The translations under genes and the position numbers were made by a program. From a virus: DNA of 31,214 nucleotides. Below are positions 14,545 through 27,308 of the stretch, piece after piece. The notes beneath the pieces were generated by a model. It worked only from the letters and a program-made list of their open reading frames with translations, was not told the DNA's origin and did not search any database. Each line of letters starts with the position of its first letter. Position 1 is the stretch's first letter. The stretch is taken from IMG/VR virus record IMGVR_UViG_3300045988_098657. One strand, given 5' to 3'.

Positions 14545-14677
14545 ATTAGTAATAATATTACATATTTATGTAAATAATAACGCTTTAATGTATTATATTA
14601 CTTGGGGCGTTTGTGAAACACTGTCCGATAAAAACAAGTCTGCCTAACAGCGGCAAGCAGAAAGCGAGGTGAGAGCA

Positions 14678-15212: not shown

Positions 15213-15281
15213 AGTGTGCACCTCCTTTCATAGTTAATCATAGCATTTAAGGTCGTGTAAAGCAATAAAATATCGAAAAGA

Positions 15282-15310
15282 ATAGTAGAACTTGAAAAAG
15301 TTCTTGTCAA
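15282..15310 (-). promoter_or_regulatory. Leftward promoter TTGACA-17-TACTAT whose spacer is a perfect palindrome (AGAACTT-gaaa-AAGTTCT, 15287-15304)
   Basis: The reverse complement of 15282-15310 reads TTGACAagaactttttcaagttcTACTAT, about 60 nt upstream of ATG 15212. Confidence 0.6.
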
Positions 15311-15356
15311 ACAGCAGAAAACAGCGTGAACACACCAACAGAAAGGAGATGAGGAG

Positions 15357-15629
15357 ATGAACAACACTTTACTTATCAACCCAAAAACTGGTCAGGAATA
15401 TGACGATGTTCCGCCGATGGTGGCGGCAAAATATCTCGGTGTGGCCCTTAACTTTGTGTATGACGGCTTAAAGCAAAAAGCACTGCCGATTGGTACAGCA
15501 GTACAGAGCGACAAAGGCAGATGGACTTACAATATCCCTTGCGACAGGCTCAAAGCATATGCAAGCGGTGTTGATGTTTTGCAGACCACACAGCTTTTAG
15601 AAATGTTTATCAGTAGAAAGGAGGCATAA
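15357..15629 (+). CDS. Putative small DNA-binding (HTH) early protein
   Basis: First rightward gene. VAAKYLGVALNFVYDGLKQKALP looks like an HTH. Confidence 0.45.
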   Translation: MNNTLLINPKTGQEYDDVPPMVAAKYLGVALNFVYDGLKQKALPIGTAVQSDKGRWTYNIPCDRLKAYASGVDVLQTTQLLEMFISRKEA

Positions 15630-15632
15630 CAA

Positions 15633-15848
15633 ATGGCACTTAGACACATTAAAACAAAACGCAGTCTTAAGGACGAGAACAAGCACTTACATAGCTTAGT
15701 CAAACACTTGCAGATTGAGCTTGAGAACGCAAGGCTTGACATTAGCATTAAGAATGACGCAATCAACGGCTACCGCAAGGAGAACATCAAGCTCAGACAG
15801 CGCATTAACAGTATGTATGCATATGATGTTTTTGGGGAGGAGGTGTAA
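15633..15848 (+). CDS. Hypothetical coiled-coil protein
   Basis: RBS aaaggagg; 71 aa. Confidence 0.6.
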   Translation: MALRHIKTKRSLKDENKHLHSLVKHLQIELENARLDISIKNDAINGYRKENIKLRQRINSMYAYDVFGEEV

Positions 15849-15851
15849 CAG

Positions 15852-16154
15852 ATGACAAAAAAAGTAAAATCCAAAGTGCTTGAGATTATGGCACTTGCAC
15901 TCGAATTTAACGGCAGAAGTACAAAGTGTGAGTGCACTGGTAGCAAGCCGACAATATTTGTTAATTTTAGCGGTCATACATGCGAGTTAGATGTTAATAT
16001 CTACACACAGGGGTGGACTTTTCACAATACAAATGCAAGAGAGATTAGAGATATAATTTATCTCGACCGTACATCGACATTAAAAGAGCTCAACAAAACA
16101 TTAAAAACGCTTAAAGCTGTTATCGCAGAATACGAAGAAAGAGAAAACCGCTGA
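15852..16154 (+). CDS. Hypothetical protein
   Basis: RBS ggaggaggtg; 100 aa. Confidence 0.6.
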   Translation: MTKKVKSKVLEIMALALEFNGRSTKCECTGSKPTIFVNFSGHTCELDVNIYTQGWTFHNTNAREIRDIIYLDRTSTLKELNKTLKTLKAVIAEYEERENR

Positions 16155-16182
16155 AACTCTCGCACAGTTCCAGCGGTTCAAA

Positions 16183-16219
16183 AGGATATATAAAATTAAT
16201 ATCAATTTTATTATATCCT
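16183..16219. repeat. AT-rich imperfect palindrome AGGATATATAAAATT-aatatc-AATTTTATTATATCCT
   Basis: Read directly in the 96-nt spacer before ATG 16251. One bulged base. Confidence 0.7.
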
Positions 16220-16250
16220 CAAATCAAATAAAAATCAAGAGGGAGATAAG

Positions 16251-16478
16251 ATGATTACCTACAATCAATTCTGCAATACATTTGCGGTAAGCGTTGGCAG
16301 TGCTGTATTTGAGGAAGTAAAACGGAGGGCAGAGCGTAAGCGTAATTACATAATAAGCCGTTTTGGTGACGGCAACGGTGCAAGACTTACAGAAAAGTAT
16401 ATGCTTGAGCTTATGCGTGATGAGCTTTGCTCATTTACCTTAGAGCAGTCAACAAGGCTTGCTGTTGGAGGTGTTTAA
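16251..16478 (+). CDS. Hypothetical protein
   Basis: RBS agagggag; 75 aa. Confidence 0.6.
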   Translation: MITYNQFCNTFAVSVGSAVFEEVKRRAERKRNYIISRFGDGNGARLTEKYMLELMRDELCSFTLEQSTRLAVGGV

Positions 16479-16480
16479 GA

Positions 16481-16657
16481 GTGTGTTACGGTTTAGCTCC
16501 AAATGCACCTATACCGCAAAAGAAAGGTGAATGTGCTTGCTGCGGTTACGAACTCAGAGAAGATTATACATATTTTGAGGACAGCGAGTGCAACAAATTT
16601 TGTAGTAAAGACTGCGCAGCAGAATTTCATAAAATCACAGAAAAGGAGTGGCAGTGA
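16481..16657 (+). CDS. Small Cys-rich (zinc-binding?) protein
   Basis: GTG 16481 with ggagg 9 nt upstream. CACCGY...CNKFCSKDC. Confidence 0.5.
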   Translation: MCYGLAPNAPIPQKKGECACCGYELREDYTYFEDSECNKFCSKDCAAEFHKITEKEWQ

Positions 16658-17547
16658 TGAACGAACAGTCACAGCTTATTGTAGTTAAGCAAATACCGAT
16701 TATTATTGAAAAACTTGAGTCTGTTAAATCTGAAATTGAGCACAAGGTAAATGTTGCTTGCTCAATGGTTTGCACAGATGAGAACTATAAAGAAATCAAA
16801 AAAATTCGTTCGGCTCTCAACAAAGAGCTTGCCGAGTTTGAAAGTCAGAGAAAAGCCGTTAAGTCCGAGGTAATGACACCGTACGAGCATTTTGAAAGCG
16901 TGTATAAGGAGTGTATTTCCACACCTTATAAAAAAGCTGATTCAGCATTAAAGAGCAAGATTGAGGCTATCGAGCAGGGGCTTAAACAGGAAAAGCACGA
17001 TAAATCAAAAGCGTATTTTAACGAGTACGCCCAAACGCTCGGCATTGATTTTGTAAAGTACGAGCAAGTCGGCTTGAGCATTACGATGACGGTTACGCTT
17101 AAAAAGCTCAGAGAAACAATCAAGGCTTTTCTTGACAAGGTTATGGACGACATAAAGCTCATTGCAGTGCAGGAGCATAAAGACGAAATTCTGTACGAGT
17201 ACAAGCAAACTTTGAATGTATCTGCTGCAATAACTTCCGTAACCGAAAGATACAAGGCTATTGAAGCCGAAAGAGCAAGAGCAGAAGCTGAAAAAACAGA
17301 GCGTGAGAAAGCAGAACTTAACGAGCAAGCAGAACTTAACGAGCAAGCAACATTGAACGAATATGAACCGTTCGAGGCAAATGTTGCAGTAGAAGTAGCT
17401 CCACCGGAAGAAAAACCACATATTAATCAAACCGATGAAAAAGTATTTTCTCTTACATTTACAGTATATGGTACTAAAACGCAGCTTAAAGATTTTGCAA
17501 TAGCAGTTAAAAAGTTAATCAACGAAAGGGGATTAAGATATGAGTAA
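16657..17547 (+). CDS. DUF1351-like recombination-module protein
   Basis: ATG overlaps the previous stop (TGATG). LIVVKQIPIIIEKLESVKSEIE...IKKIRSALNK resembles the DUF1351 proteins that precede RecT in Firmicutes phages. Confidence 0.6.
   Translation: MNEQSQLIVVKQIPIIIEKLESVKSEIEHKVNVACSMVCTDENYKEIKKIRSALNKELAEFESQRKAVKSEVMTPYEHFESVYKECISTPYKKADSALKSKIEAIEQGLKQEKHDKSKAYFNEYAQTLGIDFVKYEQVGLSITMTVTLKKLRETIKAFLDKVMDDIKLIAVQEHKDEILYEYKQTLNVSAAITSVTERYKAIEAERARAEAEKTEREKAELNEQAELNEQATLNEYEPFEANVAVEVAPPEEKPHINQTDEKVFSLTFTVYGTKTQLKDFAIAVKKLINERGLRYE
17311..17361 (+). repeat. 18-bp in-frame tandem repeat GCAGAACTTAACGAGCAA, 2 perfect copies plus 1 degenerate copy (AELNEQ AELNEQ ATLNEY)
   Basis: Read directly. 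Confidence 0.9.
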
Positions 17548-18409
17548 TTATAACATTCAGAATCAGATTCAGCAGAGAAAACCAAAATTTTCAGCCATGC
17601 TCCAGACAGTGGCTTTTCAGAAAAGCCTTTCAAATTCAATGAAAGACCCGAAGGAAATCCAAAAGTTTACGGCGGCTATCACATCTGTGGTAAGCACTAA
17701 CCCGGCACTCGAAGAATGTGATGCTGGAACAATTCTTTCAGCGGCACTTTGCGGACATTCGCTCGGGTTGCCACCATCACCACAGCTCGGACAGTATTAC
17801 ATGGTTCCGTTTAAGGACCGTAAGAACAATCGTACAACAGCAACATTCGTTCTCGGTTATCGTGGCTATATTCAGCTTGCTATCCGTTCAGGACAGTATA
17901 AGAGACTTAATGTGGTGGAAATCAAAGAGGGAGAACTTCTCAATTGGAATCCGCTTACAGAAGAAATTACAATCAAAATGATTGAAGATGAAACAGAGCG
18001 TGAAACAGCTGAAACAATCGGATACTATGCTTATTTTCGCTATGTAAACGGCTTTGAGAAAGCTCTTTACTGGAGTAAGGATAAGATGAAACAGCACGCA
18101 ATGAAGTATTCAGCCGGATATGCAAATGATATCAAGAAGGGTACAAGCTATACATTTTGGGCAAAGGATTTTGATGCAATGGCTAAAAAGACGATGCTTA
18201 GACAGCTTATCAGCAAATGGGGCGTTATGAGTGTTGAAATGCAGACAGCGTATGAATCTGACAATCATATTATCAATGCCGACGGTACTCCAGATTACGA
18301 AACAAATACAATGATTGATGCAGATGTACCTTCTGATGTAACATTACCAGAACCATCTGAACAGCAGACCGATGATGAAGCTTTCTCAATTGATGATCTT
18401 GCAGAGTGA
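17540..18409 (+). CDS. recT: RecT-family single-strand annealing protein
   Basis: LGLPPSPQLGQYYMVPF...FVLGYRGYIQLAIRSGQYK...YYAYFRYVNGF is typical of RecT. Confidence 0.85.
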   Translation: MSNYNIQNQIQQRKPKFSAMLQTVAFQKSLSNSMKDPKEIQKFTAAITSVVSTNPALEECDAGTILSAALCGHSLGLPPSPQLGQYYMVPFKDRKNNRTTATFVLGYRGYIQLAIRSGQYKRLNVVEIKEGELLNWNPLTEEITIKMIEDETERETAETIGYYAYFRYVNGFEKALYWSKDKMKQHAMKYSAGYANDIKKGTSYTFWAKDFDAMAKKTMLRQLISKWGVMSVEMQTAYESDNHIINADGTPDYETNTMIDADVPSDVTLPEPSEQQTDDEAFSIDDLAE

Positions 18410-19080
18410 GCAAGATGATTGATTTAGATATTATTAGTACAGGCTCTAAAGGCAACGCAGTCTTTCTTGGTGGTCAGACCTTAATTGATTGCGGAGTGCC
18501 TTTTAGCAAACTTGTTGATGCGAAAGTTGTTGATAAGATTAAGTATATTTTCCTAACTCATCAACACAGAGATCATTGCAATATTGCAACCATTAAGAGA
18601 CTTATTAACGAACACCCCCTAATTAAGATAATCTACCCAAATTATCTGTGCAGACATTTTAGTGATTTTGAAACCCCCTTTCTGATAAAAAGTTCGTGTA
18701 TAGTTACTGAGAGCAAATGGTACACAATAGGCAATATTACATTTTCAGCTTTTCCGTTAAGACACGATGTGCCTAATGTAGGCTGGAAACTCTACTTTCG
18801 CACTCAACAGGGGATATATAAAGTCATATATGCTACCGATACTGCGGATATATCTCATATCGTAGCTAAAAATTATGACTTGTATCTTATCGAGGCTAAT
18901 TTCACTCAAGATGAAATTATTAATCGAATAAAAGATAAGAGAATGAATGGTCAATATGTGTACGAGGAGAGAGTTCTTCGTACACATTTGAGCAAAGAAA
19001 AATGCGATGAATGGTTGTATCAGAACATGGGTGTCAACAGTGCTTATGTTTATATGCACCAACATGAGGTCTTATTATGA
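18406..19080 (+). CDS. Metallo-beta-lactamase-fold hydrolase (candidate nuclease partner of RecT)
   Basis: GNAVFL...IFLTHQHRDH (HxHxDH). The start is uncertain: GTG 18406 or ATG 18415. Confidence 0.7.
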   Translation: MSKMIDLDIISTGSKGNAVFLGGQTLIDCGVPFSKLVDAKVVDKIKYIFLTHQHRDHCNIATIKRLINEHPLIKIIYPNYLCRHFSDFETPFLIKSSCIVTESKWYTIGNITFSAFPLRHDVPNVGWKLYFRTQQGIYKVIYATDTADISHIVAKNYDLYLIEANFTQDEIINRIKDKRMNGQYVYEERVLRTHLSKEKCDEWLYQNMGVNSAYVYMHQHEVLL

Positions 19081-19721
19081 TTACATCAGCAAATATAGTG
19101 GCATATGACGGCTACAACTTAATAGTAAGACCTCGTGACCGCATTGGCAGAGAACTTTCACAAAAACAGGTCAACGAGGTTGAAATAAGAATAGTTGACG
19201 GTAGAGAAATATCTGCCGAACAACGAAGAAAAATATACGCAGTAATCAGAGATATTGCATTCTGGTGTGGTGATAATCCAGAATGGATAAAGGAATACTT
19301 CAAATTTAACTTTTGTGGTGAGTTTGGAATAAAGTATTTCTCCTTGGCAGACTGCGAAAAAAGCGTAGCAAGGGATTTCATAAGCTATCTGATAGACTTT
19401 TGTTTTTATCAGAACATCGGTACAAGAGATACCTTGCTTAATGTTACAGATGATATTGGTAGATATTTATATAGCTGTCTTGAAAATCGTAAGTGTGCGA
19501 TATGCAATGCTCCCGGCGAAATTCATCATGTTGATAGAGTTGGGATGGGCCGAGACAGGGAACAGATAGTTCATATAGGACTTAGAGCCATCTGCCTTTG
19601 CAGAAAACATCACGATGAAGCACATTGGCATGAAAAAGAACTGTTTGAAAAGTATAAAATCTATGGCATAGAACTCGACGAGTATCTCTGTAAAAAACTC
19701 AAACTCAATACAAAGGAGTGA
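19077..19721 (+). CDS. HNH-like (DUF968-like) protein
   Basis: CAICNAPGEIHHVDRVGMGRDR...CLCRKHHDEAHW. Confidence 0.6.
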   Translation: MITSANIVAYDGYNLIVRPRDRIGRELSQKQVNEVEIRIVDGREISAEQRRKIYAVIRDIAFWCGDNPEWIKEYFKFNFCGEFGIKYFSLADCEKSVARDFISYLIDFCFYQNIGTRDTLLNVTDDIGRYLYSCLENRKCAICNAPGEIHHVDRVGMGRDREQIVHIGLRAICLCRKHHDEAHWHEKELFEKYKIYGIELDEYLCKKLKLNTKE

Positions 19722-19729
19722 TGTAGTGA

Positions 19730-20563
19730 ATGGCTGGACAACCAAAGCAAGGTTTAGACTTTGCCGCTTGGGATGTTCACATTTTCGATGACGATGAGAG
19801 ATTTGATGTGCTTATCGATGCACAGGGATGGAGCGGCTTTGGCGTGTTCTTCTATATTTGCACGAAAGCATATGCCACTAATGGTTATTACTATGAGTGG
19901 CGAGAAAAAACCAGTGCGGCCGCAATAGCGAAACGAATGAGTGGTGGAATTAAATCAGATACGGTAAAACAGGTAGTACAGCTTTGCTTACAAATTGGGC
20001 TGTTTGACAACGGGCTGTTTGATAGGGAGAGAATACTGACAAACAAAATGATGCAAGAACGGTATATGTACGCTATTGAGAAACGCTCTAAGCGAGGTCG
20101 CACAATTAATAAAGATTACTGGCTTTTGAAAGAAGATGAAACAAAGGCTTATATAATTGTACCCGAAAATGAGCATAATCTCTCCGAAAATGGGAATAAT
20201 CTCGCCGAGAATGACATAAAGAAAAGTAAAGTAAAGGAAAGTAAAGAAAAAGAAAAGAAAAGCGATGTTTTTATTTCTTTATTGTTAAAAGAAGAAAGCA
20301 CTTATCAAGTGACATTTTCTCAGCTGAATAATTTTAAAAATATTTACACATTGATTGATGTTGAAAACGAACTCGTAAAGATGTCTAAGTATTTTGAGCT
20401 GCACCCCGACAGCAGAAAAACACTTGATGATATCGAGAATTATATAAACCGTTGGTTATTAAAGAGGAGTGATGAAGTTGACAGCATACGAAAGAATAAT
20501 TCAAAAGTACCTGCCAAAAAACGGAGCACAGGAGCGTTTAACACAGGCGAGGTTGTACTCTGA
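19730..20563 (+). CDS. Replisome organizer / replication initiator (DUF4373, Lin1244-like N-terminal domain)
   Basis: GLDFAAWDVHIFDDDERFDVLIDAQGWSGFGVFFYICTKAY...ERILTNKMMQERY. Iterons and an A-rich tract lie inside the gene. Confidence 0.7.
   Translation: MAGQPKQGLDFAAWDVHIFDDDERFDVLIDAQGWSGFGVFFYICTKAYATNGYYYEWREKTSAAAIAKRMSGGIKSDTVKQVVQLCLQIGLFDNGLFDRERILTNKMMQERYMYAIEKRSKRGRTINKDYWLLKEDETKAYIIVPENEHNLSENGNNLAENDIKKSKVKESKEKEKKSDVFISLLLKEESTYQVTFSQLNNFKNIYTLIDVENELVKMSKYFELHPDSRKTLDDIENYINRWLLKRSDEVDSIRKNNSKVPAKKRSTGAFNTGEVVL
20163..20300. promoter_or_regulatory. Candidate replication origin: CCGA(A/G)AATG x3 at 21-bp phasing (20163, 20184, 20205), with ATAATCTC(T/G)CCGA(A/G)AATG x2, then an A-rich tract with GTAAAG x3
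   Basis: Read directly inside the organizer gene. Confidence 0.45.
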
Positions 20564-21332
20564 GCTTACGGCAGAGGAAAAGGCACAGCGAGAGGCGGAT
20601 ATTTTTAATGCGCAAACAGGCAAGCTGACAGGCTATGACTGCGATAAATGCAAAAACAAGGGTACGATATACAGCACAGTAAAAAGGGATTTTTGCGGTA
20701 CAGAAACCTTTGAGGTGGTTAGCCGACCCTGCGAGTGCTTAAAGGTGAGAGCAGAGCTTAAGAGAATTAAGAAAAGCGGACTTGCAAGGCTGATTGAAAG
20801 GTACAATTTCGGAACGTATATTGTCAAGAGCGAATGGCAGGCTTACATAAAGAAATGTGCCGAGGATTTCGCAAACAATCCTGTAGATTGGTTTTACATC
20901 GGCGGCCAGTCGGGCTGCGGTAAAACGCATATTTGCACCGCAATAATCGGTTCGCTGTTAAAGCAGGGCAGATCCGCAAGGTATATGCTTTGGGGCGATG
21001 ACATAACGGCTATTAAGCAAGCAGTAACAAACGCTGAGCAGTACGAAAAACTTATGAGCAATGTAAAAAATGCCGGTGTGCTGTATATTGACGATTTTTT
21101 CAAAACACGCAGCGGCGAGGGAATAAGCAACGCCGATGTGAATACAACCTTTAAAATCATAAACCACCGCTACAATGAGCAGCTGCCAACAGTGATAAGC
21201 TCCGAACTTTCCATAAACGAAATTGCGGCAATTGACGAGGCATTAGGCAGCCGCATAGCCGAAATGACAAGAACGCATAAGATTTACATTTCAAAGGATA
21301 AAAGCAAAAATCAGAGGTTTTACTATGGATAA
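20472..21332 (+). CDS. DnaC/IstB-like AAA+ helicase loader
   Basis: Walker A GGQSGCGKTH, Walker B VLYIDDF, and an N-terminal CDKC...CEC cluster. The start is uncertain (ATG 20472 or TTG 20478). It overlaps the previous gene by about 90 nt. Confidence 0.75.
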   Translation: MKLTAYERIIQKYLPKNGAQERLTQARLYSELTAEEKAQREADIFNAQTGKLTGYDCDKCKNKGTIYSTVKRDFCGTETFEVVSRPCECLKVRAELKRIKKSGLARLIERYNFGTYIVKSEWQAYIKKCAEDFANNPVDWFYIGGQSGCGKTHICTAIIGSLLKQGRSARYMLWGDDITAIKQAVTNAEQYEKLMSNVKNAGVLYIDDFFKTRSGEGISNADVNTTFKIINHRYNEQLPTVISSELSINEIAAIDEALGSRIAEMTRTHKIYISKDKSKNQRFYYG

Positions 21333-21729
21333 ATCAGTAACAGAATTTTTTATGAAAATGGAAAAAGTGCCGACTGTAACAGCTCAGGAACGCAGAGTAA
21401 GGACCGTTAAGGGCAAGCCGGTATTTTACGATTCACCGAGAATAAAATCGGCTAAGGCTTTACTTGTGGCTCATCTAAAACAGCATAGACCGCTAAAGCC
21501 GTATGATAGTGGTGTAAGGCTGAGGGTAAGCTGGCTTTTTCCAAAAGGCAGACACAAAGACGGTGAGTATCGTATTACAAAACCCGACACAGATAACCTA
21601 CAAAAAATGCTCAAGGACTGTATGACGCTCTGCGGATTTTGGACAGATGACGCACTTGTGGCAAGCGAGATATGCGAAAAGCTTTGGGCAGATGTGCCGG
21701 GCATTTACATAAGGATTGAACAGTTATGA
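21325..21729 (+). CDS. rusA: RusA-family Holliday junction resolvase
   Basis: ITKPDTDNLQKMLKDCMTLCGFWTDDALV is the RusA catalytic-region pattern. Confidence 0.8.
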   Translation: MDKSVTEFFMKMEKVPTVTAQERRVRTVKGKPVFYDSPRIKSAKALLVAHLKQHRPLKPYDSGVRLRVSWLFPKGRHKDGEYRITKPDTDNLQKMLKDCMTLCGFWTDDALVASEICEKLWADVPGIYIRIEQL

Positions 21730-21917
21730 ACATCTCGCAGGTTAAACGCAGTCTTGGACGAAAGGTGCTTTACAATGGTACAGAATACATTCTGACAGGC
21801 TGTATCATCAGACGAGGCACAACAGGTCAATTTTATTATCAGGCTGAAATAAAGGATTTAAACGCTAATTCTGCATTGTTGTATTGCAGACTTGAAGATT
21901 TGGAGGAGATGAAATAA
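21726..21917 (+). CDS. Hypothetical protein
   Basis: 63 aa; ATGA overlap with rusA. Confidence 0.55.
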   Translation: MNISQVKRSLGRKVLYNGTEYILTGCIIRRGTTGQFYYQAEIKDLNANSALLYCRLEDLEEMK

Positions 21918-22292
21918 ATGTATTCAGCTATATGTCAAATATGCGGTAACGAATTTACCGCAAGAGCAAAAACAACAAAATATTGTTCAGCTTGTGTCAG
22001 TAAAGCCAAAGCCGAGGCGGCGCTACACAGAAAAGAGCAGTTAAATAGACCGCCGACAACCGATACAGAATTTTTAATATGTTTATATACATACAGAGGT
22101 GATTCTATATCACGCATTGCAACGGATTTGAACAGAAGCGAAGAGGATGTTCAAAGCATATTAAATGAAGCAAAAGCAAGCGGTCGTTATAACATGCACA
22201 TACAAAAACATCTTAACTCTGTGAATTACAAAAGTACACTTAGTGACGATTATGTAGACAGCAGTAATGCTATTATGGACGGCTATAAATAA
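21918..22292 (+). CDS. Zinc-ribbon plus HTH (sigma region-4-like) putative regulator
   Basis: CQICGNEF...YCSACV followed by DSISRIATDLNRSEEDVQSILNEAK. Confidence 0.5.
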   Translation: MYSAICQICGNEFTARAKTTKYCSACVSKAKAEAALHRKEQLNRPPTTDTEFLICLYTYRGDSISRIATDLNRSEEDVQSILNEAKASGRYNMHIQKHLNSVNYKSTLSDDYVDSSNAIMDGYK

Positions 22293-22354
22293 GGAGGATA
22301 TTATGAGTATGCTTTTTGATTATGACCTGGTATTACTAATGGAGGATGAAGAAA

Positions 22355-22531
22355 ATGATTGATTGTTCAAGAACTGAAAATTACTTGACTAAAAAGTTAA
22401 GGCTGACGAAAAAACATAAGCTGAACGATGATACATATATATGTGGAATCGCTTGTGGCGACTGCCCTTTGAGCCGTGTAGGGCAAAAATTTACAAAAAG
22501 CACACATACTTTCATTGCCGAAGTATGTTGA
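22355..22531 (+). CDS. Hypothetical Cys-containing protein
   Basis: ATG 22355 lies 9 nt after ggagg. The track ATG at 22346 abuts the RBS. Confidence 0.45.
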   Translation: MIDCSRTENYLTKKLRLTKKHKLNDDTYICGIACGDCPLSRVGQKFTKSTHTFIAEVC

Positions 22532-22548
22532 GATAAGGAGTGATACAA

Positions 22549-22731
22549 ATGGGAACATCATATAAAGCTCAAATTGATAACGAAAAGGGAAAATATGAAA
22601 TTCAATTTGAAACTACCAATTATGATTATTACAAAATGGTAGAAAGAGCTTGTCAAAAAGCAATAGACAAAAAGGATAAGGCTGTATTAAAAGAGCGTTG
22701 TTCTCAAAGCAGAGTATTAGGGCATTTATAA
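22549..22731 (+). CDS. Hypothetical protein
   Basis: ATG 22549 lies 8 nt after aaggag. Confidence 0.5.
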   Translation: MGTSYKAQIDNEKGKYEIQFETTNYDYYKMVERACQKAIDKKDKAVLKERCSQSRVLGHL

Positions 22732-22745
22732 AGGAGTAATATAGA

Positions 22746-23285
22746 ATGAGTAATAGAAAATCTATATCAAAACATACGAGGCTTAAAGTATATCAAAAAT
22801 ATAATGGTCATTGTGCTTACTGTGGTTGTACACTCGAACTAAAGGATATGCAAGTTGACCATATACAGAGCGTGTATTGGTATGACGGTGCAAACGATAT
22901 TGAAAATTATAATCCTGCTTGCAGAATGTGTAATTTTTATAAATCTACAATGTCGGTTGAAGATTTTAGAGAGCAATTAGGTAAAATACTATCAAGACTG
23001 GAAAAGGTTTTTATTTTTAGATTAGCTAAGAAATACGGCTTAATCAGAGAAATAAAAGAACCTGTAATATTTTATTTTGAAAAAGAAAATTTTAAAAAAG
23101 TTGTGGATTTTGAGCCTAAAAAGCCTATTAAATCTGATGTACAGGAGATTAAACACGCAAAGTGGGAAGAAATCCGAGATGCCTACGGGCAACTTGAAGG
23201 ATGGATTCATATTGAGTGTGGTAGAGAGGTAAAAATTAAAGAGAATTATTGTCCGAGTTGCGGTGCGAGAATGGATAAGGAGTGA
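22746..23285 (+). CDS. HNH endonuclease with C-terminal zinc ribbon
   Basis: HCAYCGC...DHIQS...NYNPACRMCNFYK, with C-terminal CPSCGARM. Confidence 0.8.
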   Translation: MSNRKSISKHTRLKVYQKYNGHCAYCGCTLELKDMQVDHIQSVYWYDGANDIENYNPACRMCNFYKSTMSVEDFREQLGKILSRLEKVFIFRLAKKYGLIREIKEPVIFYFEKENFKKVVDFEPKKPIKSDVQEIKHAKWEEIRDAYGQLEGWIHIECGREVKIKENYCPSCGARMDKE

Positions 23286-23291
23286 GCAAGA

Positions 23292-23819
23292 ATGAAAGCC
23301 CATATAACTAAAGAACCTGCTGACAAAAGGAGAACAGGCAAAATGACAAATTTTGAAAATATTACAATTGAAAAGGGAATGTATCAGCAGAAGGGCAAGA
23401 CACTTACAGATGTACTTGAAACTCTTGACCCGTCGGAAAACTATAAGGGTACGACACTTTCAAATCTTGACGCTTTTTCAAGACAGCTCAAGCGTTTTGG
23501 CATTAAGGTGAACGGCAGCGGCAGTGACTGCGTGGAAAAATTCTTCCAATCCTCGGACTCGGCGGCACTTTTCCCCGAATATGTCAGCCGTGCGGTAAGA
23601 CAGGGTATGGAGAGAGCGGATATTCTCCCGCAGATTGTGGCTACTGTTACAAATATTGACGGTATGGATTACATAAGCATTGAGTCCGATATGACAGACG
23701 ATGACAAGACTTTAAAGCCTGTGGGCGAGGGCGCTGTAATTCCGCAGACAAAAATCAAGTCAATGAGCGTTGAGGATATGGCGGAAATGTTGCTTGATGA
23801 AAGCGAGGTGGAAGAATGA
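23292..23819 (+). CDS. Chimeric ORF: the ends are paralogous to 24331..24525 and the middle 131 codons are unrelated (possibly a capsid-protein-like N-terminal fragment)
   Basis: Two RBS-preceded starts (23292 and 23343). From 23343: MTNFE-[131 aa]-KIKSMSVEDMAEMLLDESEVEE, versus MTNFE-KIKSMSIDEMA...WLESEVEE in the paralog. Confidence 0.6.
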   Translation: MKAHITKEPADKRRTGKMTNFENITIEKGMYQQKGKTLTDVLETLDPSENYKGTTLSNLDAFSRQLKRFGIKVNGSGSDCVEKFFQSSDSAALFPEYVSRAVRQGMERADILPQIVATVTNIDGMDYISIESDMTDDDKTLKPVGEGAVIPQTKIKSMSVEDMAEMLLDESEVEE

Positions 23820-24127
23820 CATCAAAAGAGACTATGTATAAAGCAATCAATACATACGGTGTGGAAAATCAGATGATAAAGACGGTCGAAGAGTTGTCTG
23901 AATTGTCGCAGGCTTTGTGTAAAAGCATTGTAAGATTAAATTATACTAAAGAAAAAACATCACTTGTAGATGATTTGAAATCTGTTGATAATATCTTTGA
24001 AGAAATTGCAGATGTTGAGATTATGCTTGAACAATGCAAGATAATGTTTCAATGCGATAAAGAAGTGAATGAATGGAAACATAAAAAGATTGAGCGGCTT
24101 GAAAGAAGACTGGAAGGTGAAAAATAA
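23816..24127 (+). CDS. MazG-like all-alpha NTP pyrophosphohydrolase
   Basis: KTVEELSELSQAL...FEEIADVEIMLEQ, the paired acidic helix motifs of small phage MazG proteins. Confidence 0.65.
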   Translation: MTSKETMYKAINTYGVENQMIKTVEELSELSQALCKSIVRLNYTKEKTSLVDDLKSVDNIFEEIADVEIMLEQCKIMFQCDKEVNEWKHKKIERLERRLEGEK

Positions 24128-24318
24128 TGGCATTCCCCGAAAAGCTAAAAGCGTTAAGACTTAAAAATGGATTAACGCAAGATGAGTTGGGCGAAAAGCT
24201 CTATTTGAGCAGGACAAGTATTTCAAACTATGAGCAGGGAAAATTTGAGCCTAATATCGAAACCATAATAGCTATATCAGATTTATTTAACATTACAACA
24301 GATGAATTGTTGAAGTGA
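24127..24318 (+). CDS. XRE-family HTH protein (63 aa)
   Basis: LKALRLKNGLTQDELGEKLYLSRTSISNYEQGKFEPNIETIIAISDLFNITTDELL. Confidence 0.85.
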   Translation: MAFPEKLKALRLKNGLTQDELGEKLYLSRTSISNYEQGKFEPNIETIIAISDLFNITTDELLK

Positions 24319-24330
24319 GGTGTGAACACA

Positions 24331-24525
24331 ATGACAAACTTTGAAAAAATCAAATCAATGAGTATCGACGAAATGGCTCGTAGCAGTATAGACTTTTTCA
24401 GTTGCCCATATAACATACCAGGTGACCCGCCATATAGTTATTGCGATTGCGAAATAGGTGAAAAATTTAATCATAATTGTATTAACTGCACAAAACATTG
24501 GCTTGAAAGTGAGGTAGAAGAATGA
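24331..24525 (+). CDS. Small Cys-rich protein (MTNFEKIKSMSIDEMA...CINCTKHWLESEVEE)
   Basis: ATG 24331 lies 9 nt after tgaggtg. It is the paralog of the ends of 23292..23819. Confidence 0.65.
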   Translation: MTNFEKIKSMSIDEMARSSIDFFSCPYNIPGDPPYSYCDCEIGEKFNHNCINCTKHWLESEVEE

Positions 24526-24884
24526 CCACAAAAGAAATCAAAGACATAAACCGAGAAATTACGAGGTTAAAAGCTAAGATTGCACGCATAGCCGCCGAGG
24601 CTGACAATACATCGCCTAAGCTGTCGGATTTACCGAGTGCAGGTCAAACATCTGACAAGGTCGGCAATGCGGTGGTGCAGATTGCAGATATTCAGAGAGA
24701 GATACAAAACCTTGAAATCCGCCGAAACGCAGCACTCAACAGCCTATCTCGTGACGATTTTGTTGAGAACTGTTTGTTTATGCACCTTAGCTTGCGATAC
24801 AGCTGGGCGAAGATAGCAGTTGATACAGGCGGAATAAATACACCGGATAACATAAGAATTATGTGCAACCGCCACCGTTGGTAA
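24522..24884 (+). CDS. Sigma-70 region-4-like (DUF1492/ArpU-like) putative late-gene regulator
   Basis: LSDLPSAGQTSDKVGNAVVQIADIQREI...YSWAKIAVDTGGINTPDNIRIMCNR. It is the last regulator-like gene before the packaging region. Confidence 0.5.
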   Translation: MTTKEIKDINREITRLKAKIARIAAEADNTSPKLSDLPSAGQTSDKVGNAVVQIADIQREIQNLEIRRNAALNSLSRDDFVENCLFMHLSLRYSWAKIAVDTGGINTPDNIRIMCNRHRW

Positions 24885-24984
24885 AAGTTGTTCGGTTTTT
24901 CGGTTTAGGTGCAGTATAATATAAAATGAAGAAATTGATAATAAGAGACATTTTGTAGTTCTCCTTTTTCAAAAATAACGGCAG

Positions 24985-25016
24985 ACCGCTCTCGTTGAGG
25001 GCGGTTTTGCTTTTGC
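24985..25016. terminator. Hairpin terminator, possibly bidirectional
   Basis: ACCGCTCT-cgttg-AGGGCGGT followed by TTTTGCTTTTG on the + strand and by TTATTTTTG on the - strand. Confidence 0.55.
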
Positions 25017-25028
25017 GGGGTGGAATTA

Positions 25029-25652
25029 ATGTATAAAGACAAATGCGGTACAGGTTACGAAAATAGCACAAGAGCGATTTTTCAGGGTGCAGGAGAATAT
25101 GACATCCCGATTATTGAGCCTACAAAAATTACAGAAAACAACTTTATCGGATTTAATGAAGTTTTGAGCAGTAAGCAGAACAACTGCGGTGTGCATTTCT
25201 TTTTGGACGATTACCAGTTCCAAAGATTATGGAATACACCCGACAGGTACATTGAGAGGCTACAAAAATTCAATTGTGTGTTATCACCTGATTTTAGCCT
25301 TTACGCTGATTATCCGAAAGCGTTGCAGATTTATAACCACTATCGCAAACATTGGATAGGCGCATATTTACAGCTTTATGGTATTGAAGTAATACCAACA
25401 ATTTGTTGGAGCGACGAAAAGAGTTTTGAATGGTGCTTTGACGGCGAGCCTTGCGGCGGAACAGTCGCCGTGTCGAGTGTCGGCACTCAGAAAAACAAGA
25501 TTGCCAAAGAACTGTTTTTGAAAGGTTACAAAGATATGATTGAACGCTTACAGCCTGAAACGGTCATCTTCTACGGCAAAGTCCCCGAAGAATGTGTTGG
25601 AAACATCATCAACATCAAATCATTTCAGGAAAAATTCAGGAGGTCAGAATAA
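25029..25652 (+). CDS. DUF4417-like protein
   Basis: HFFLDDYQFQRLWNTPDRY...VLSPDFSLYADYP...QIYNHYRKHWIGAYLQ..GIEVIPTICW...WCFDG matches my memory of DUF4417. Confidence 0.65.
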   Translation: MYKDKCGTGYENSTRAIFQGAGEYDIPIIEPTKITENNFIGFNEVLSSKQNNCGVHFFLDDYQFQRLWNTPDRYIERLQKFNCVLSPDFSLYADYPKALQIYNHYRKHWIGAYLQLYGIEVIPTICWSDEKSFEWCFDGEPCGGTVAVSSVGTQKNKIAKELFLKGYKDMIERLQPETVIFYGKVPEECVGNIINIKSFQEKFRRSE

Positions 25653-25921
25653 TGGGCGGAAGAGGCGGAAACTTAGGTGGTCATAAAAATTATTCTGTAA
25701 GTCCTTTAGCCGCATTTAAAGAGAATGCGAAACAGTTTAATTTTGCTTTGCAAGAGGGTAAAGCTAAAAAATCAGGCATTGTTGAATTTACTGATATAAC
25801 AGGCAAGGTTATAAAAAGGTACTGGAACGGAGCAACTTATACAGACAGAAGTAGCGCACTTTATGAAAAAGAATTTAAAGGTACACATAAAGTGAGTTTT
25901 AAAAAGCCTAAGGAGTGGTAA
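25652..25921 (+). CDS. MGGRG-leader protein 1 (89 aa)
   Basis: ATG overlaps the DUF4417 stop (TAATG), RBS caggagg. MGGRGGNLGG... Confidence 0.7.
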   Translation: MGGRGGNLGGHKNYSVSPLAAFKENAKQFNFALQEGKAKKSGIVEFTDITGKVIKRYWNGATYTDRSSALYEKEFKGTHKVSFKKPKEW

Positions 25922-25922
25922 A

Positions 25923-26339
25923 ATGGGTGGAAGAGGTGGAAGTTTTGGAGTTATTCCAAAACTCAGAAATCCTGTTGGTATTCCTTCAAATGCTATTACT
26001 GAGGATGAATTTCTTAAATTAAAAGGTGTTGGGGATATTTCAAGCGGTTACACGGTTGATAAACTTAGAGGTAACAGAGCGCTGAAAACACAGCGTGGAC
26101 AGGAAAAGTTCGAAAAAGAGGCCTTGAAAGCCAATGCGGATTATTCAAATAAGCGTGCGAGTGCAAGAAAGGAATACAAATCTTTAGTAAGCAAAGGCGT
26201 GATTAGAGATAAGACACCTACAGAGAGAAGATTAACAACCGCTCACGGACACCCTGATAATCAATCGACACAAGCCGCAAGGCGATTACTGGCTAAACAA
26301 GGAATTGACTGGAAAACAGGCAAGAAAATTAAATCATAG
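25923..26339 (+). CDS. MGGRG-leader protein 2 (138 aa, very basic)
   Basis: RBS taaggag. MGGRGGSFGV... Confidence 0.7.
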   Translation: MGGRGGSFGVIPKLRNPVGIPSNAITEDEFLKLKGVGDISSGYTVDKLRGNRALKTQRGQEKFEKEALKANADYSNKRASARKEYKSLVSKGVIRDKTPTERRLTTAHGHPDNQSTQAARRLLAKQGIDWKTGKKIKS

Positions 26340-26361
26340 TAAATCCAAAAGGGGTATTACA

Positions 26362-26757
26362 ATGGGCGGAAGAGGTTCTTCAAGTGGAATAAGCGATAAA
26401 GGTAAAAAGTACGGTACGGAATACAAAGCAGTTGCTCAATTTGGTGAAATAAAAGTAATTCGTATGAATGGTAATACTTCGATAAAAGCTCCTATGGAAA
26501 CTATGACAAAAAATAGAGTGTATGCTACTCTTGACAAACAGAGCAACATCAAAAGTGTTACTTTTTATGACAACTACGGCGAAAGAATAAAACAAATTGA
26601 CGTTAAAGGTAGACCTCATAATGGAATGATGCCACATACCCATTTGGGTTATGAACATAATGAAATTGGAGATCGTCAATTGACTGATAAAGAACAGAAA
26701 TATGTAAGTGTATTATTGAATAAATGGGAAAGAAAAAGAAAACACTTGAATATTTAG
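26362..26757 (+). CDS. MGGRG-leader protein 3 (131 aa, His cluster GRPHNGMMPHTHLGYEHNE)
   Basis: RBS aaaagggg. MGGRGSSSGI... Confidence 0.7.
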   Translation: MGGRGSSSGISDKGKKYGTEYKAVAQFGEIKVIRMNGNTSIKAPMETMTKNRVYATLDKQSNIKSVTFYDNYGERIKQIDVKGRPHNGMMPHTHLGYEHNEIGDRQLTDKEQKYVSVLLNKWERKRKHLNI

Positions 26758-26774
26758 AAATTTATTGATATAAT
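26746..26774 (+). promoter_or_regulatory. Near-consensus extended -10 promoter TTGAAT-17-(TGa)TATAAT; candidate late promoter
   Basis: Read directly. It overlaps the last codons of the previous gene. Confidence 0.65.
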
Positions 26775-26780
26775 ATTATA

Positions 26781-26885
26781 AACGCAGGGGATAGTTTAAA
26801 TAGGAAAACAGTTTTTACAGATTCCGGTGCAACTCCGGAAACCTGTGTTTAAAGACAGTACAGAAATGTGCTGTCTTTTCTTTTG
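26781..26885 (+). ncRNA. Predicted short (~100 nt) terminated leader transcript with two hairpins
   Basis: It runs from about 7 nt after the -10 box to the terminator. Hairpin 1 is TTCCGG-tgcaact-CCGGAA (26822-26840) and hairpin 2 is the terminator. It contains no ORF. Confidence 0.35.
26851..26885 (+). terminator. Rho-independent terminator between the late promoter and terS
   Basis: AAAGACAGTAC-agaaat-GTGCTGTCTTT followed by TCTTTTG. Confidence 0.7.
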
Positions 26886-26912
26886 CTTATTTTTAGAAAG
26901 GGCGGTGATACC

Positions 26913-27308
26913 GTGAAAGACAAATTAAATGCAAGGCAGAAGAAGTTTGCCGAATATTATGTGCAGAGCGGTAACACCGTTCAGAGTGCGATTATGGCTG
27001 GATATTCAGAACATTATGCCAATGCCTTAGCTTATAAATTATTGGAAAATATAGGAGTTGCCGAGTACATCAAAGAGTTATCTGACAAGCTCAAAGATGA
27101 ACGCATTATGAGTGCTAAGGACAGACAGGTCGCTCTCTCGGACATAGCAAGGAGCAATGAGCAGGACCCGTCAGACCGTATCAGAGCCATCGACACACTG
27201 AACAAGATGACAGGCGAATATGTCGTTAAGGTTGACGCAAAGGTTGAGCAATCCGAAAAGCTCTCTGATGTGTTCAGACAGTTAGGCGGTGAGGGCTTGA
27301 GTGAGTAG
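26913..27308 (+). CDS. terS: Terminase small subunit (Terminase_2-like)
   Basis: KLNARQKKFAEYYVQSGNTVQSAIMAGYSEHYANALAYKLLENIGVAEYI. GTG 26913 is chosen because the track start at 26868 lies inside the terminator. Confidence 0.8.
   Translation: MKDKLNARQKKFAEYYVQSGNTVQSAIMAGYSEHYANALAYKLLENIGVAEYIKELSDKLKDERIMSAKDRQVALSDIARSNEQDPSDRIRAIDTLNKMTGEYVVKVDAKVEQSEKLSDVFRQLGGEGLSE

What the first reader, a model, noticed from the sequence alone, without database searches (positions are those of the whole stretch)
26746..26912. Near-consensus promoter followed about 100 nt later by an intrinsic terminator, directly upstream of terS (lambda PR'-tR'-like late control unit?)
TTGAAT-17-TGaTATAAT (26746-26774) is the best promoter in the window. 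The predicted transcript contains a 6-bp hairpin (26822-26840). It then meets a strong terminator (26851-26885) before the terS start at 26913. The terminator lies 95 nt past the upstream stop codon and downstream of the promoter, so it does not simply close the upstream operon. Late genes would therefore be expressed only if the terminator is overridden. That is the logic of Q-type or RNA-mediated antitermination, with a short 6S-like RNA as the default product. Candidate protein factors are the region-4-like proteins at 24522..24884 and 21918..22292.
Basis: partly seen in the sequence, partly recalled or inferred. Interest (0 to 1): 0.62.

Follow-up and report, generated by a model that had tools for sequence, protein, structure and literature searches.

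The report
tRNA-like small RNA gene before terS

Summary
There is a TTGAAT-17-TGaTATAAT promoter (26746-26774), a 6-bp hairpin (26822-26840), a strong terminator (26851-26878 plus a T tract) and terS at 26913.

The unit is a gene for a ~105-nt cloverleaf RNA. The "6-bp hairpin" is its T arm. It is a divergent relative of Rfam SpF41_sRNA (41.8 bits against a threshold of 52). A model built without the window still finds it (47.2 bits, E 7.5e-14). That model's next-best hits in the host genome (Ruminococcus bromii) are true tRNAs. Covariation supports all four arms.

The RNA gene lies directly 3' of a homologous 131-aa Ntox24-like gene in 43 of 59 diverse Bacillota loci. There the protein's W-Y-N codons (TGGTATAAT) are the RNA's extended -10. 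Fourteen RNA-less loci carry a small overlapping ORF instead. Streptococcal satellites carry the RNA alone, once as a three-variant array. The gene after the RNA varies.

Best reading (inferred): a tRNA-mimic antidote or decoy for the neighbouring protein. The lambda PR'-tR' reading is only partly supported. A terminator precedes terS in 80 of 80 relatives, but 67 of them lack this unit. A better late-control candidate is at 24885-25010.

The scan had already noted the MGGRG gene trio on this window.

The parts
26362..26757 (+). 131-aa Ntox24-like protein gene with an MGGRGSSSG N-terminus. The true start is ATG 26362, with RBS aaaagggg. It is the conserved upstream partner of the RNA gene.
   Evidence: Pfam Ntox24 at 24.0 bits (cut-off 24) and phrog_9479 at 1e-40. 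Homologous to the ORF directly upstream of SpF41 in phage A25, Dorea phage DO134P1 and Javan377. 620 homologues found. AlphaFold model is all-beta plus a C-terminal helix, pLDDT 77.5, with no PDB fold match.
26746..26774 (+). Promoter of the sRNA gene: -35 TTGAAT (26746-26751) and extended -10 TGaTATAAT (26766-26774). Predicted start is about A26781.
   Evidence: An extended -10 sits 4-11 nt upstream of the RNA in 36 of 44 homologues. In most of them it is formed by the W-Y-N codons TGGTATAAT of the upstream gene.
26781..26849 (+). Cloverleaf (tRNA-like) RNA core. Acceptor-type stem 26781-26788 with 26842-26849. D arm 26794-26797/26806-26809 with loop AAAUAGGA. Vestigial 'anticodon' linker 26810-26821. 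T arm 26822-26827/26835-26840 with loop UGCAACU.
   Evidence: RF02435, full length, 41.8 bits, E 2e-5. MFE fold z = -2.66. RNAalifold returns the same cloverleaf. Covariation: 91.4% of cells paired, 19 of 21 pairs changed on both sides, score 0.635 vs 0.219 in shuffles. Leave-window-out model R2: 47.2 bits, E 7.5e-14, next-best hit 10 bits.
26851..26888 (+). Intrinsic terminator T2 of the sRNA gene: 12-bp stem, 4-nt loop and a T-rich tail. It is also the last terminator before terS.
   Evidence: 41 of 44 homologous RNA genes end in such a terminator. 80 of 80 terS relatives have some terminator at this position.
26913..27308 (+). terS (small terminase subunit), first gene of the packaging and head operon. 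RBS AAAGGGCGG lies at about 26898-26906.
   Evidence: Pfam Terminase_2 at 9.2e-22. The start is conserved in 80 relatives.
25020..26339 (+). Remainder of the inserted cassette: DUF4417 protein (25020-25652) and two more MGGRG-led genes (25652-25921, 25923-26339).
   Evidence: Pfam DUF4417 at 3.9e-66. Translations. In 48 of 80 relatives this cassette plus the RNA gene is absent, and the 24885-25010 unit abuts terS.
24885..25010 (+). Better candidate for the late-control unit. Direct repeats TCGGTTT x2 (24892-24906), -10 TATAAT (24915-24920) with no good -35, a ~60-nt leader, and terminator T1 (24983-25007).
   Evidence: The leader fold has z = -3.47. The same unit lies directly upstream of terS in type B/C relatives. 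The repeats covary with the upstream regulator's C-terminus.
24522..24884 (+). 120-aa putative late activator (phrog_36 'transcriptional regulator', weak match). It pairs with the 24885-25010 promoter.
   Evidence: E 1.2e-5....NIRIMCNRHRW goes with GTTCGGTTTTTCGGTTT...SIKKMCYRHHW goes with GTCCCGATGTCCCGAA; a different sigma-region-4-like regulator goes with GAAATGTCATTGAATGTCAC.

Best explanation
SHOWN. Region 26746-26888 is an autonomous gene with its own extended -10 promoter and its own intrinsic terminator. It encodes a ~105-nt cloverleaf, tRNA-like small RNA. This RNA is a divergent relative of the uncharacterised Streptococcus sRNA family SpF41/F41. The RNA keeps an acceptor-type stem, a D arm with a GG loop and a canonical-looking T arm. 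The anticodon arm is reduced to a 12-nt linker, and elsewhere in the family that position is hypervariable. The gene is physically coupled to the gene immediately upstream, which encodes a 131-aa Ntox24-like (predicted RNase-toxin-type) protein. The pair is inherited as a unit in phages of many Bacillota. Here it sits in a cassette inserted between the phage's late promoter unit (24885-25010) and terS.

INFERRED. The RNA is the antidote, or a non-cleavable tRNA decoy, for the neighbouring protein. It would present the tRNA elbow and acceptor surface without a target anticodon loop, and its strong constitutive promoter would keep it in excess. Phages that lack the RNA use a small overlapping protein partner instead. 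Satellites carry the RNA alone, sometimes several variants, as immunity.

SIDE EFFECT. The RNA's terminator (T2), together with T1, lies between the late promoter and terS, so late transcription must read through both.
For: RNA gene:
- Full-length sub-threshold RF02435 hit.
- A25 has a bona fide SpF41 (99.6 bits) in the same synteny.
- RNAalifold gives a cloverleaf, and covariation is strong: 91.4% paired, 19 of 21 pairs with compensatory changes, 0 of 500 shuffles as high, slid controls 0.05-0.13.
- The leave-window-out model finds only this site in the window (47.2 bits, E 7.5e-14).
- In the R. bromii genome, that model's next-best hits are tRNA-His, tRNA-Met and tRNA-Thr.
- Promoter and terminator are conserved in 36 and 41 of 44 homologues.
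- F41 is a 103-nt Northern-validated RNA.

Coupling to the protein:
- The upstream ORF is homologous in the R. bromii phage, Streptococcus and Dorea phages.
- The RNA lies directly 3' of the gene in 43 of 59 genome loci at 45-56% protein identity, and in 79 of 80 close IMG/VR loci; the 80th ends inside the promoter.
- The -10 is encoded by the conserved W-Y-N codons, and the stop codon often lies inside the D arm.
- Among 80 terS relatives, toxin gene and RNA are present or absent together. L026 keeps only a 3' RNA remnant and no toxin gene.

Antidote idea:
- 14 RNA-less loci have an overlapping ~100-aa ORF in the RNA's place, and no locus has both.
- Satellite Javan160 has three different RNA variants under one promoter and one terminator, resembling a poly-immunity locus.
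- Ntox24 is predicted to be a metal-independent endoRNase and is also found in TA systems (PMC3482391).
Against: - The toxin assignment is weak. Pfam Ntox24 scores exactly at its cut-off (24 bits). There is no solved-structure relative and no PADLOC hit. Most relatives are stand-alone ~130-aa proteins, not C-termini of secreted toxins.
- The switch between RNA and protein partner maps to one clade, possibly a second at L214. It is therefore one or two evolutionary events, not many independent ones.
- The small partner ORF has no known immunity or antitoxin family.
- The gene order (protein, then RNA) is the reverse of known type III TA loci, and the window has a single copy, not repeats.
Confidence: 0.5

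Rival explanations
1. The RNA is functional and tRNA-like, but it is not an antidote for its neighbour. It could be a cofactor, guide or substrate of the 131-aa enzyme, forming an RNP that may be packaged with the MGGRG proteins. Or it could act independently of the protein, for example as a sponge for host tRNA-binding factors or tRNA-targeting defence nucleases, or as a trans-acting regulator as proposed for F41 in pneumococcus.
For: The structural and linkage evidence is the same as for the best explanation. Satellites and TIGR4 carry and express the RNA without the protein, so it can act alone. Deleting F41 changed host transcripts and attenuated virulence. A Dorea phage places a real tRNA-Met directly after the RNA, as if this were a tRNA-type slot.
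Against: A cofactor or substrate role does not explain why RNA-less relatives carry a small overlapping protein ORF in the same position. An independent role does not explain a promoter embedded in the protein's conserved codons across 45%-identical homologues.
Confidence: 0.25
2. The unit is a lambda PR'-tR'-like late-control module. A constitutive promoter makes a short terminated RNA, and a phage factor (Q-like or RNA-mediated) modifies RNA polymerase there so that it reads through into terS and the late genes.
For: A promoter, ~100 nt and a strong terminator lie directly before terS, with no room for another promoter. Every one of 80 relatives has a terminator before terS. Types B and C have a promoter-leader-terminator unit in exactly that place.
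Against: 67 of 80 relatives with the same terS lack this unit. The same RNA gene precedes portal, MuF, DUF4417 or toxin-like genes elsewhere and occurs in satellites. The transcribed region is a covarying cloverleaf whose conservation follows the upstream gene. No Q/N antiterminator family was detected in the early region. The regulator at 24522-24884 covaries with the repeats of another promoter.
Confidence: 0.1
3. The cloverleaf is mainly an RNA-processing, stability or insulation signal. It would be a tRNA-like punctuation mark cut by RNase P/RNase Z, or a structured 3' end, that defines the 3' end of the upstream gene's mRNA and separates the cassette from the late operon.
For: In most homologues the toxin mRNA must run into the cloverleaf, and the stop codon lies inside the D arm. 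A three-cloverleaf array under one promoter in a satellite implies tRNA-type processing. The model cross-hits real tRNAs.
Against: The RNA has its own conserved extended -10 promoter in 36 of 44 cases, including satellites and a toxin-less duplicate in L190. That argues the RNA itself is the product. In the window the stop codon lies 24 nt upstream of the cloverleaf.
Confidence: 0.08
4. A decayed tRNA gene with no present function.
For: ARAGORN and the Rfam tRNA model do not call it. The anticodon arm is degenerate.
Against: Compensatory changes maintain all stems across phages of many families, with a conserved promoter and terminator. The element is invariant or nearly so in about 90 related phage contigs.
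Confidence: 0.02

Closest known systems
Rfam RF02435 SpF41_sRNA (F41/srn277 of Streptococcus pneumoniae TIGR4; Mann et al. 2012, PMC3395615)
   Same: Both are ~100-nt RNAs with an own promoter and terminator. The consensus match is full length and shows the same closing stem and T arm (GGUUCGAAUCC-type). Synteny is the same as bona fide members, such as phage A25: directly 3' of a homologous protein gene and upstream of terS.
   Different: The window scores 41.8 bits, below the 52-bit gathering threshold. It lacks the short CCUU-GAUN-GAGG hairpin and has T loop UGCAACU. The host is Ruminococcus, not Streptococcus. In the papers read here the family is treated as an uncharacterised sRNA. The tRNA-like fold, the phage and satellite location and the link to the Ntox24-like gene are not mentioned in them.
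Type III toxin-antitoxin systems (ToxIN, CptIN, TenpIN)
   Same: A small structured RNA is encoded next to a (predicted) RNase-type toxin, on a mobile element, with a terminator in the unit. RNA arrays occur in some relatives.
   Different: The order is reversed (protein, then RNA). The RNA has its own promoter inside the protein gene. The RNA is a tRNA-like cloverleaf, not pseudoknotted repeats. The protein is unrelated to ToxN, CptN or TenpN. Neutralisation is untested.
Phage-encoded tRNAs and tRNA mimics (phage tRNAs that counter anticodon nucleases; bacterial YrlA Y-RNA-like tRNA mimics). From my own knowledge, not tested here.
   Same: A phage-borne RNA that presents the tRNA acceptor, D and T architecture. 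YrlA-type RNAs likewise keep the elbow and replace the anticodon arm.
   Different: This RNA has no anticodon loop, so it cannot decode. There is no Ro/Rsr partner. It is tied to a specific small protein gene.
Lambda PR'-tR' / 6S RNA with Q antitermination
   Same: A constitutive-looking promoter, a ~100-nt terminated RNA and late genes immediately downstream.
   Different: No Q-family gene was found. The unit is not conserved at the head of the late operon. The RNA is a conserved structured gene product in its own right.
GOLLD RNA (RF02032)
   Same: It occupies the same slot, between the last early gene and terS, in a pneumococcal phage with a related terS (L003, 270 bits). It is also a phage structured RNA of unknown function.
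   Different: It is about 400 nt long with an unrelated architecture, and it is not next to an Ntox24-like gene.

Membership tests
Rfam RF02435 SpF41_sRNA | Covariance-model score at or above the curated gathering score (52 bits) | tested here: not met
   41.8 bits, E 2e-5, model positions 1-105 of 105. There was no hit in gathering mode.
Rfam RF02435 SpF41_sRNA | Shared secondary structure (closing stem, internal arms, T-type arm) with relatives, tested independently of the window | tested here: met
   Model R2 was built from 27 RNAs from other genomes and includes streptococcal loci with the same RNA as the phages that match A25's 99.6-bit SpF41. It hits 26781-26849 at 47.2 bits, E 7.5e-14, full length. 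The next-best hit scores 10 bits.
Rfam RF02435 SpF41_sRNA | Genomic context of bona fide members | tested here: met
   A25 SpF41 (99.6 bits) lies directly after a homologue of window ORF 26362-26757 and before terS.
Rfam RF02435 SpF41_sRNA | Expressed as a discrete ~100-nt RNA | not testable with these tools
tRNA | Recognised by tRNA detectors (ARAGORN, Rfam tRNA model) | tested here: not met
   ARAGORN found 0 genes in the window. There was no tRNA-family hit at E <= 10 in 26600-27000.
tRNA | Anticodon arm with a 5-bp stem and a 7-nt loop | tested here: not met
   The window has a 12-nt linker (26810-26821). Relatives have 4-bp tetraloop hairpins or 100-130-nt inserts.
tRNA | Acceptor stem, D arm with GG loop, T arm with 7-nt loop, in cloverleaf order | tested here: met
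   The family model's next-best hits in the R. bromii genome are tRNA-His, tRNA-Met and tRNA-Thr over the full model length.
Lambda-type Q / PR'-tR' late control | Promoter, short RNA and terminator immediately upstream of the late operon | tested here: met
Lambda-type Q / PR'-tR' late control | A Q-family (or N-family) antiterminator gene in the phage | tested here: not met
   No such Pfam or PHROG family was found among the ORFs scanned across 14669-26757. This is a sequence-level test only.
Lambda-type Q / PR'-tR' late control | The unit is conserved at the head of the late operon in related phages | tested here: not met
   It is present in 13 of 80 relatives with >=89%-identical terS, one of them (L026) only as a remnant. 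Elsewhere it precedes non-terS genes.
Type III toxin-antitoxin | RNA antitoxin made of tandem repeats, encoded upstream of the toxin with a terminator between them | tested here: not met
   The window has a single copy downstream of the protein gene. Arrays occur only in some relatives.
Type III toxin-antitoxin | The protein is a toxic endoRNase that is neutralised by binding the RNA | not testable with these tools
   The only evidence is borderline Ntox24 similarity. There is no structural relative.
Pfam PF15529 Ntox24 (for the upstream protein) | Score at or above the gathering cut-off, all-beta fold and conserved His/Tyr | tested here: inconclusive
   24.0 bits against a cut-off of 24; the relative L216 scores 18.9 bits. 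The model is all-beta plus one helix. Y17, Y54, H92, H94 and H99 are invariant in 56 sequences. NCBI names one relative 'polymorphic toxin type 24 domain-containing protein'.

The most novel reading that the evidence does not exclude
The cloverleaf RNAs (the SpF41 family in a broad sense) are a new class of RNA immunity factor or antitoxin. They would be tRNA mimics lacking the anticodon loop that neutralise a phage-borne Ntox24-like tRNA-directed RNase. They would be interchangeable in evolution with a small protein immunity factor. Satellites would collect them in multi-variant arrays as 'poly-immunity' against helper-phage toxins. This would also explain the long-uncharacterised pneumococcal sRNA F41.
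Probability: 0.35. Interest if true: 0.85.

Novelty: new variant of a known kind. Interest (0 to 1): 0.7.

Why it matters
SpF41/F41 has been in Rfam and in pneumococcal sRNA lists since 2012. It has a reported virulence phenotype but no mechanism. This analysis makes five points about it:

- It is a tRNA-like cloverleaf.
- It belongs to phages and their satellites across many Bacillota, including a prophage of the gut keystone species Ruminococcus bromii.
- It is fused at the nucleotide level to a toxin-type gene, with its promoter inside that gene's conserved codons.
- It is replaced by a small protein in one clade.
- Satellites carry it in arrays.

Together these give a direct, cheap experiment: test toxicity of the protein with and without the RNA. 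The result could define a new RNA-based antidote or decoy mechanism and a new use of tRNA mimicry by phages.

Separately, every related phage has a terminator immediately before terS, and the 24885-25010 unit has an activator-specific promoter followed by a leader and a terminator. Late-gene control in these phages may therefore involve terminator read-through, and that too is testable.

Tried and rejected
Searches that found nothing:
- ARAGORN on the window and on five related loci found no tRNA call at the element.
- Rfam in gathering mode found nothing in the window.
- blastn of 26700-26920 against 50,697 phage records gave no match, so nucleotide similarity alone would have missed the family.
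- Foldseek of the 131-aa model against the PDB gave no hit below E 0.2. A profile search of PDB sequences found nothing.
- PADLOC found nothing for the toxin-like protein, its small protein partner, DUF4417 or the MGGRG proteins.
- The class-b partner ORF has no Pfam family.
- Four look-ups of the scan's earlier findings returned only notes on this same window.

Ideas tested and not confirmed:
- I looked for long polymorphic toxins carrying this domain at their C-terminus. The top 150 of 529 hits are almost all stand-alone ~130-aa proteins. Two are ParB-like fusions. The 'secreted polymorphic toxin' reading is therefore not confirmed.
- I asked whether the L214 partner ORF is homologous to the class-b partner. 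BLASTP gave only E 0.1.
- I asked whether the pneumococcal GOLLD locus is also next to an Ntox24-like gene. It is not; the gene there looks like a regulator.

I rebuilt the alignment without such rows.

Readings rejected:
- A start at GTG 26868 for terS was rejected. Homology and the RBS place the start at 26913.
- An attP-type tRNA fragment was rejected. The element is internal to the satellites, it is complete, and it has its own promoter and terminator.
Full report
**1. Observation**

- TTGAAT-17-TATAAT with a TG extension lies at 26746-26774.
- A 6-bp hairpin lies at 26822-26840.
- A 12-bp-stem terminator with a T-rich tail lies at 26851-26878.
- terS (Pfam Terminase_2, 9e-22) starts at GTG 26913 behind a good RBS.

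The promoter is the only site at 10/12 or better that has a TG extension. Two other sites match 11/12 hexamer positions, and promoter-like sites as a class are not enriched over shuffles. The consensus match alone therefore proves little. Conservation does (section 3).

**2. What the transcribed region is**

A permissive Rfam scan of 26600-27000 gave a full-length match (positions 1-105 of 105) to RF02435, SpF41_sRNA. The score was 41.8 bits and E 2e-5, below the 52-bit gathering score.

The minimum-free-energy fold closes a stem between 26781-26788 and 26842-26849 around three internal elements (z = -2.66). Upstream of it is a D-arm-like hairpin (GUUU-AAAUAGGA-AAAC).

ARAGORN and the Rfam tRNA model do not call it a tRNA.

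F41, the founding member of the family, is a 103-nt Northern-validated sRNA of S. pneumoniae TIGR4. Its deletion attenuated infection in mice, and no mechanism is known (PMC3395615). It occurs in only 4 of 385 pneumococcal strains (PMC11601373), so it is accessory DNA.

**3. Relatives and structure**

- Streptococcus phage A25 has a bona fide SpF41 (99.6 bits) directly upstream of its terS.
- blastn with the A25 RNA finds it in 26 streptococcal phage and satellite records and in a Dorea phage.
- Starting from the upstream protein (section 4), I collected 59 diverse genomic loci and aligned 28 RNAs.
- RNAalifold independently returned a four-arm cloverleaf.
- On that structure 91.4% of cells pair, and 19 of 21 pairs show changes on both sides. 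The covariation score is 0.635 against 0.219 in shuffles (0 of 500 as high) and 0.05-0.13 when partners are slid.
- A model built without the window (R2) finds 26781-26849 at 47.2 bits, E 7.5e-14. The next-best hit in the window scores 10 bits.
- In the R. bromii genome that carries the same prophage, the next-best hits of this model are tRNA-His, tRNA-Met and tRNA-Thr, over the full model length. That is an objective measure of tRNA-likeness.
- The anticodon-arm position is the variable part. It is 12 nt in the window, a 4-bp tetraloop hairpin in streptococci, and a 100-130-nt insert in nine loci.
- Of 44 RNA genes, 36 have a TG-extended -10 lying 4-11 nt upstream, and 41 have an intrinsic terminator within 75 nt.

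The promoter-cloverleaf-terminator unit is therefore a conserved, autonomous sRNA gene.

**4. The conserved neighbour**

The ORF ending at 26757 really starts at ATG 26362. It encodes a 131-aa protein beginning MGGRGSSSG. It matches Pfam Ntox24 exactly at the cut-off (24 bits) and phrog_9479 at 1e-40.

It is homologous (47-51% identity) to the ORF immediately upstream of the RNA in A25, Dorea phage DO134P1 and Javan377. It has 620 homologues.

The closest genomic copy (97% identity, identical RNA unit) is in Ruminococcus bromii ATCC 27255 (L171). This identifies the likely host.

The coupling to the RNA gene is tight.
- In 43 of 59 genome loci (45-56% protein identity; Streptococcus, Enterococcus, Lachnospiraceae, Oscillospiraceae, Erysipelotrichaceae, Lactobacillaceae and others) the RNA follows directly.
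- In most of them the protein's conserved C-terminal W-Y-N codons, TGGTATAAT, are the RNA's extended -10. The 5' acceptor strand is coding sequence, and the stop codon lies inside the D arm.
- In the window lineage the old -10 has decayed (TGGGAAAGA), and a new promoter sits 25 nt downstream.
- Of 80 close IMG/VR relatives of the protein, 79 carry the RNA unit; the 80th locus ends inside the promoter.

**5. RNA or protein partner**

Sixteen of the 59 loci lack the RNA.
- Fourteen have an overlapping ~100-aa ORF in its place (MTWxxFxxWQRWDEFPExxDNPP...). It has no Pfam family.
- One (L214) has a different small overlapping ORF with marginal similarity (E 0.1).
- One (L228) has neither.
- No locus has both the RNA and the ORF.

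On a maximum-likelihood tree the protein-partnered toxins form a single clade (support 99/94) nested among the RNA-partnered ones. The exclusivity is therefore strict, but it reflects one evolutionary switch, or two at most.

Streptococcal satellite phages carry the RNA, with the same TGGTATAAT promoter, but without the protein. Satellite Javan160 has three different variants in tandem under one promoter and one terminator.

Ntox24 was predicted to be a metal-independent endoRNase of polymorphic toxin and TA systems (PMC3482391).

The AlphaFold model is all-beta plus a C-terminal helix (pLDDT 77.5). It has no solved relative. Most relatives are stand-alone proteins. The toxin assignment therefore remains a prediction.

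**6. Relation to terS and late control**

Among 80 phages with >=89%-identical terS, the region upstream of terS is mosaic.
- Twelve loci have the window's unit.
- One has a 3' remnant of it (L026).
- 48 have a different promoter-leader-terminator unit (types B and C).
- Four have that unit's terminator but neither leader motif.
- Fourteen have only a CDS end plus a terminator.
- One has another hairpin.
- All 80 have an intrinsic terminator about 25-40 nt before the terS RBS.

The type B unit is also present in the window at 24885-25010, directly after the 120-aa regulator gene 24522-24884. The window therefore equals type B plus an inserted cassette: DUF4417, three MGGRG-led genes and the sRNA gene.

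In that unit the -10 is good and the -35 is poor. Two direct repeats sit where a -35 would be, and the repeat sequence covaries with the regulator's C-terminus across relatives. This is the signature of an activator-dependent late promoter. It is followed by a ~60-nt leader and the strong terminator T1.

The better candidate for the control unit is 24885-25010.

The gene downstream of the RNA in other phages is variable. It can be Terminase_2, other terS types, DUF4417, SPP1 portal, MuF, or further MGGRG genes including an ADP-ribosyltransferase. No Q/N antiterminator family is detectable.

**7. Mechanism**

Shown:
- An autonomous cloverleaf sRNA gene.
- Nucleotide-level coupling to the Ntox24-like gene.
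- Mutual exclusivity with a small protein ORF.
- RNA-only copies and arrays in satellites.

Inferred (confidence about 0.5): the RNA binds and neutralises the neighbouring protein. It would do so as a tRNA decoy that offers the acceptor and elbow surface but no anticodon loop. A strong constitutive promoter would keep it in excess.

Alternatives:
- The RNA is a cofactor or substrate of the protein, or acts independently of it (0.25).
- A processing or insulation element (0.08).
- A dead tRNA gene (0.02).

**8. Novelty**

The RNA family is catalogued but uncharacterised. None of the papers I could search links it to tRNA mimicry, phages or satellites, or a toxin-type partner. Absence from the open-access library is not proof of absence from the literature.

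I classify the window's element as a new (divergent) variant of a known kind.

**9. Limits**

The window's own assembly is not held. The protein's function rests on a borderline profile match. The partner switch is phylogenetically a single event. E-values from my covariance models are rough because the calibration was shortened.

Noticed in passing
window 24885-25010 (with 24522-24884): This looks like an activator-dependent late promoter. Direct repeats TCGGTTT x2 replace a -35, and a ~60-nt leader and strong terminator T1 (24983-25007) follow. In 48 of 80 relatives this unit abuts terS. The repeat sequence covaries with the C-terminus of the upstream regulator. The leader begins ATAAAATGAAGAAAT and could encode a 10-aa peptide (MKKLIIRDIL). 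A similar ATATAAAATGA motif plus a hairpin precedes terS in streptococcal phages.
   Followed up: partly
The MuF/minor-capsid gene was read across the circular junction. It is 572 aa long, has an HELIH metalloprotease-like motif and ends ...VKQLLGG. In other phages MGGRG-led genes include an ADP-ribosyltransferase toxin domain (L210). One ORF (L202) reads ...IQRFGGRGASSG. This suggests toxin-type cassettes related to MuF C-termini.
   Followed up: partly
L087 2484-2840 (Streptococcus satellite phage Javan160): Three different cloverleaf RNA variants lie in tandem (2502-2573, 2581-2728, 2737-2808). The spacers are 7-8 nt, and there is one TGGTATAAT promoter and one terminator. A Gp49/HigB-like gene plus an HTH gene pair lies downstream.
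   Followed up: partly
L003 936-1330 (S. pneumoniae phage phiARI0285-1): A GOLLD RNA (270 bits) occupies the same slot between the last early gene and terS. The upstream gene there looks like a regulator, not an Ntox24-like protein.
   Followed up: partly
L089 2495-2679 (Dorea phage DO134P1): The cloverleaf RNA is followed, after its terminator, by a genuine tRNA-Met gene and then terS.
   Followed up: no
L184, L186-L189, L211, L216-L218, L221-L225 (e.g. L216 1844-2149): A conserved ~100-aa ORF (MTWxxFxxWQRWDEFPE..PP.TV...) overlaps the 3' end of RNA-less Ntox24-like genes. It has no Pfam or PADLOC family and is a candidate new immunity or antitoxin family. DUF4417 is the upstream neighbour there too.
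   Followed up: partly
L026 1357-1439: In one close relative only the 3' half of a cloverleaf RNA (T arm plus 3' acceptor strand, L181-like) and the terminator remain. The Ntox24-like gene is absent, so toxin and RNA appear to have been lost together by deletion.
   Followed up: no
P0248, P0162: Two longer proteins fuse an N-terminal ParB-like nuclease domain to the C-terminal two-thirds of the Ntox24-like domain.
   Followed up: no
L190 1959-2161; L172 196-268; L196 394-580: Second copies of the cloverleaf RNA occur in some prophages. In L190 the second copy keeps a fragment of toxin 3' coding sequence (…KKIWYN) that supplies its -10. The promoter function is therefore retained after the ORF is lost.
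   Followed up: no
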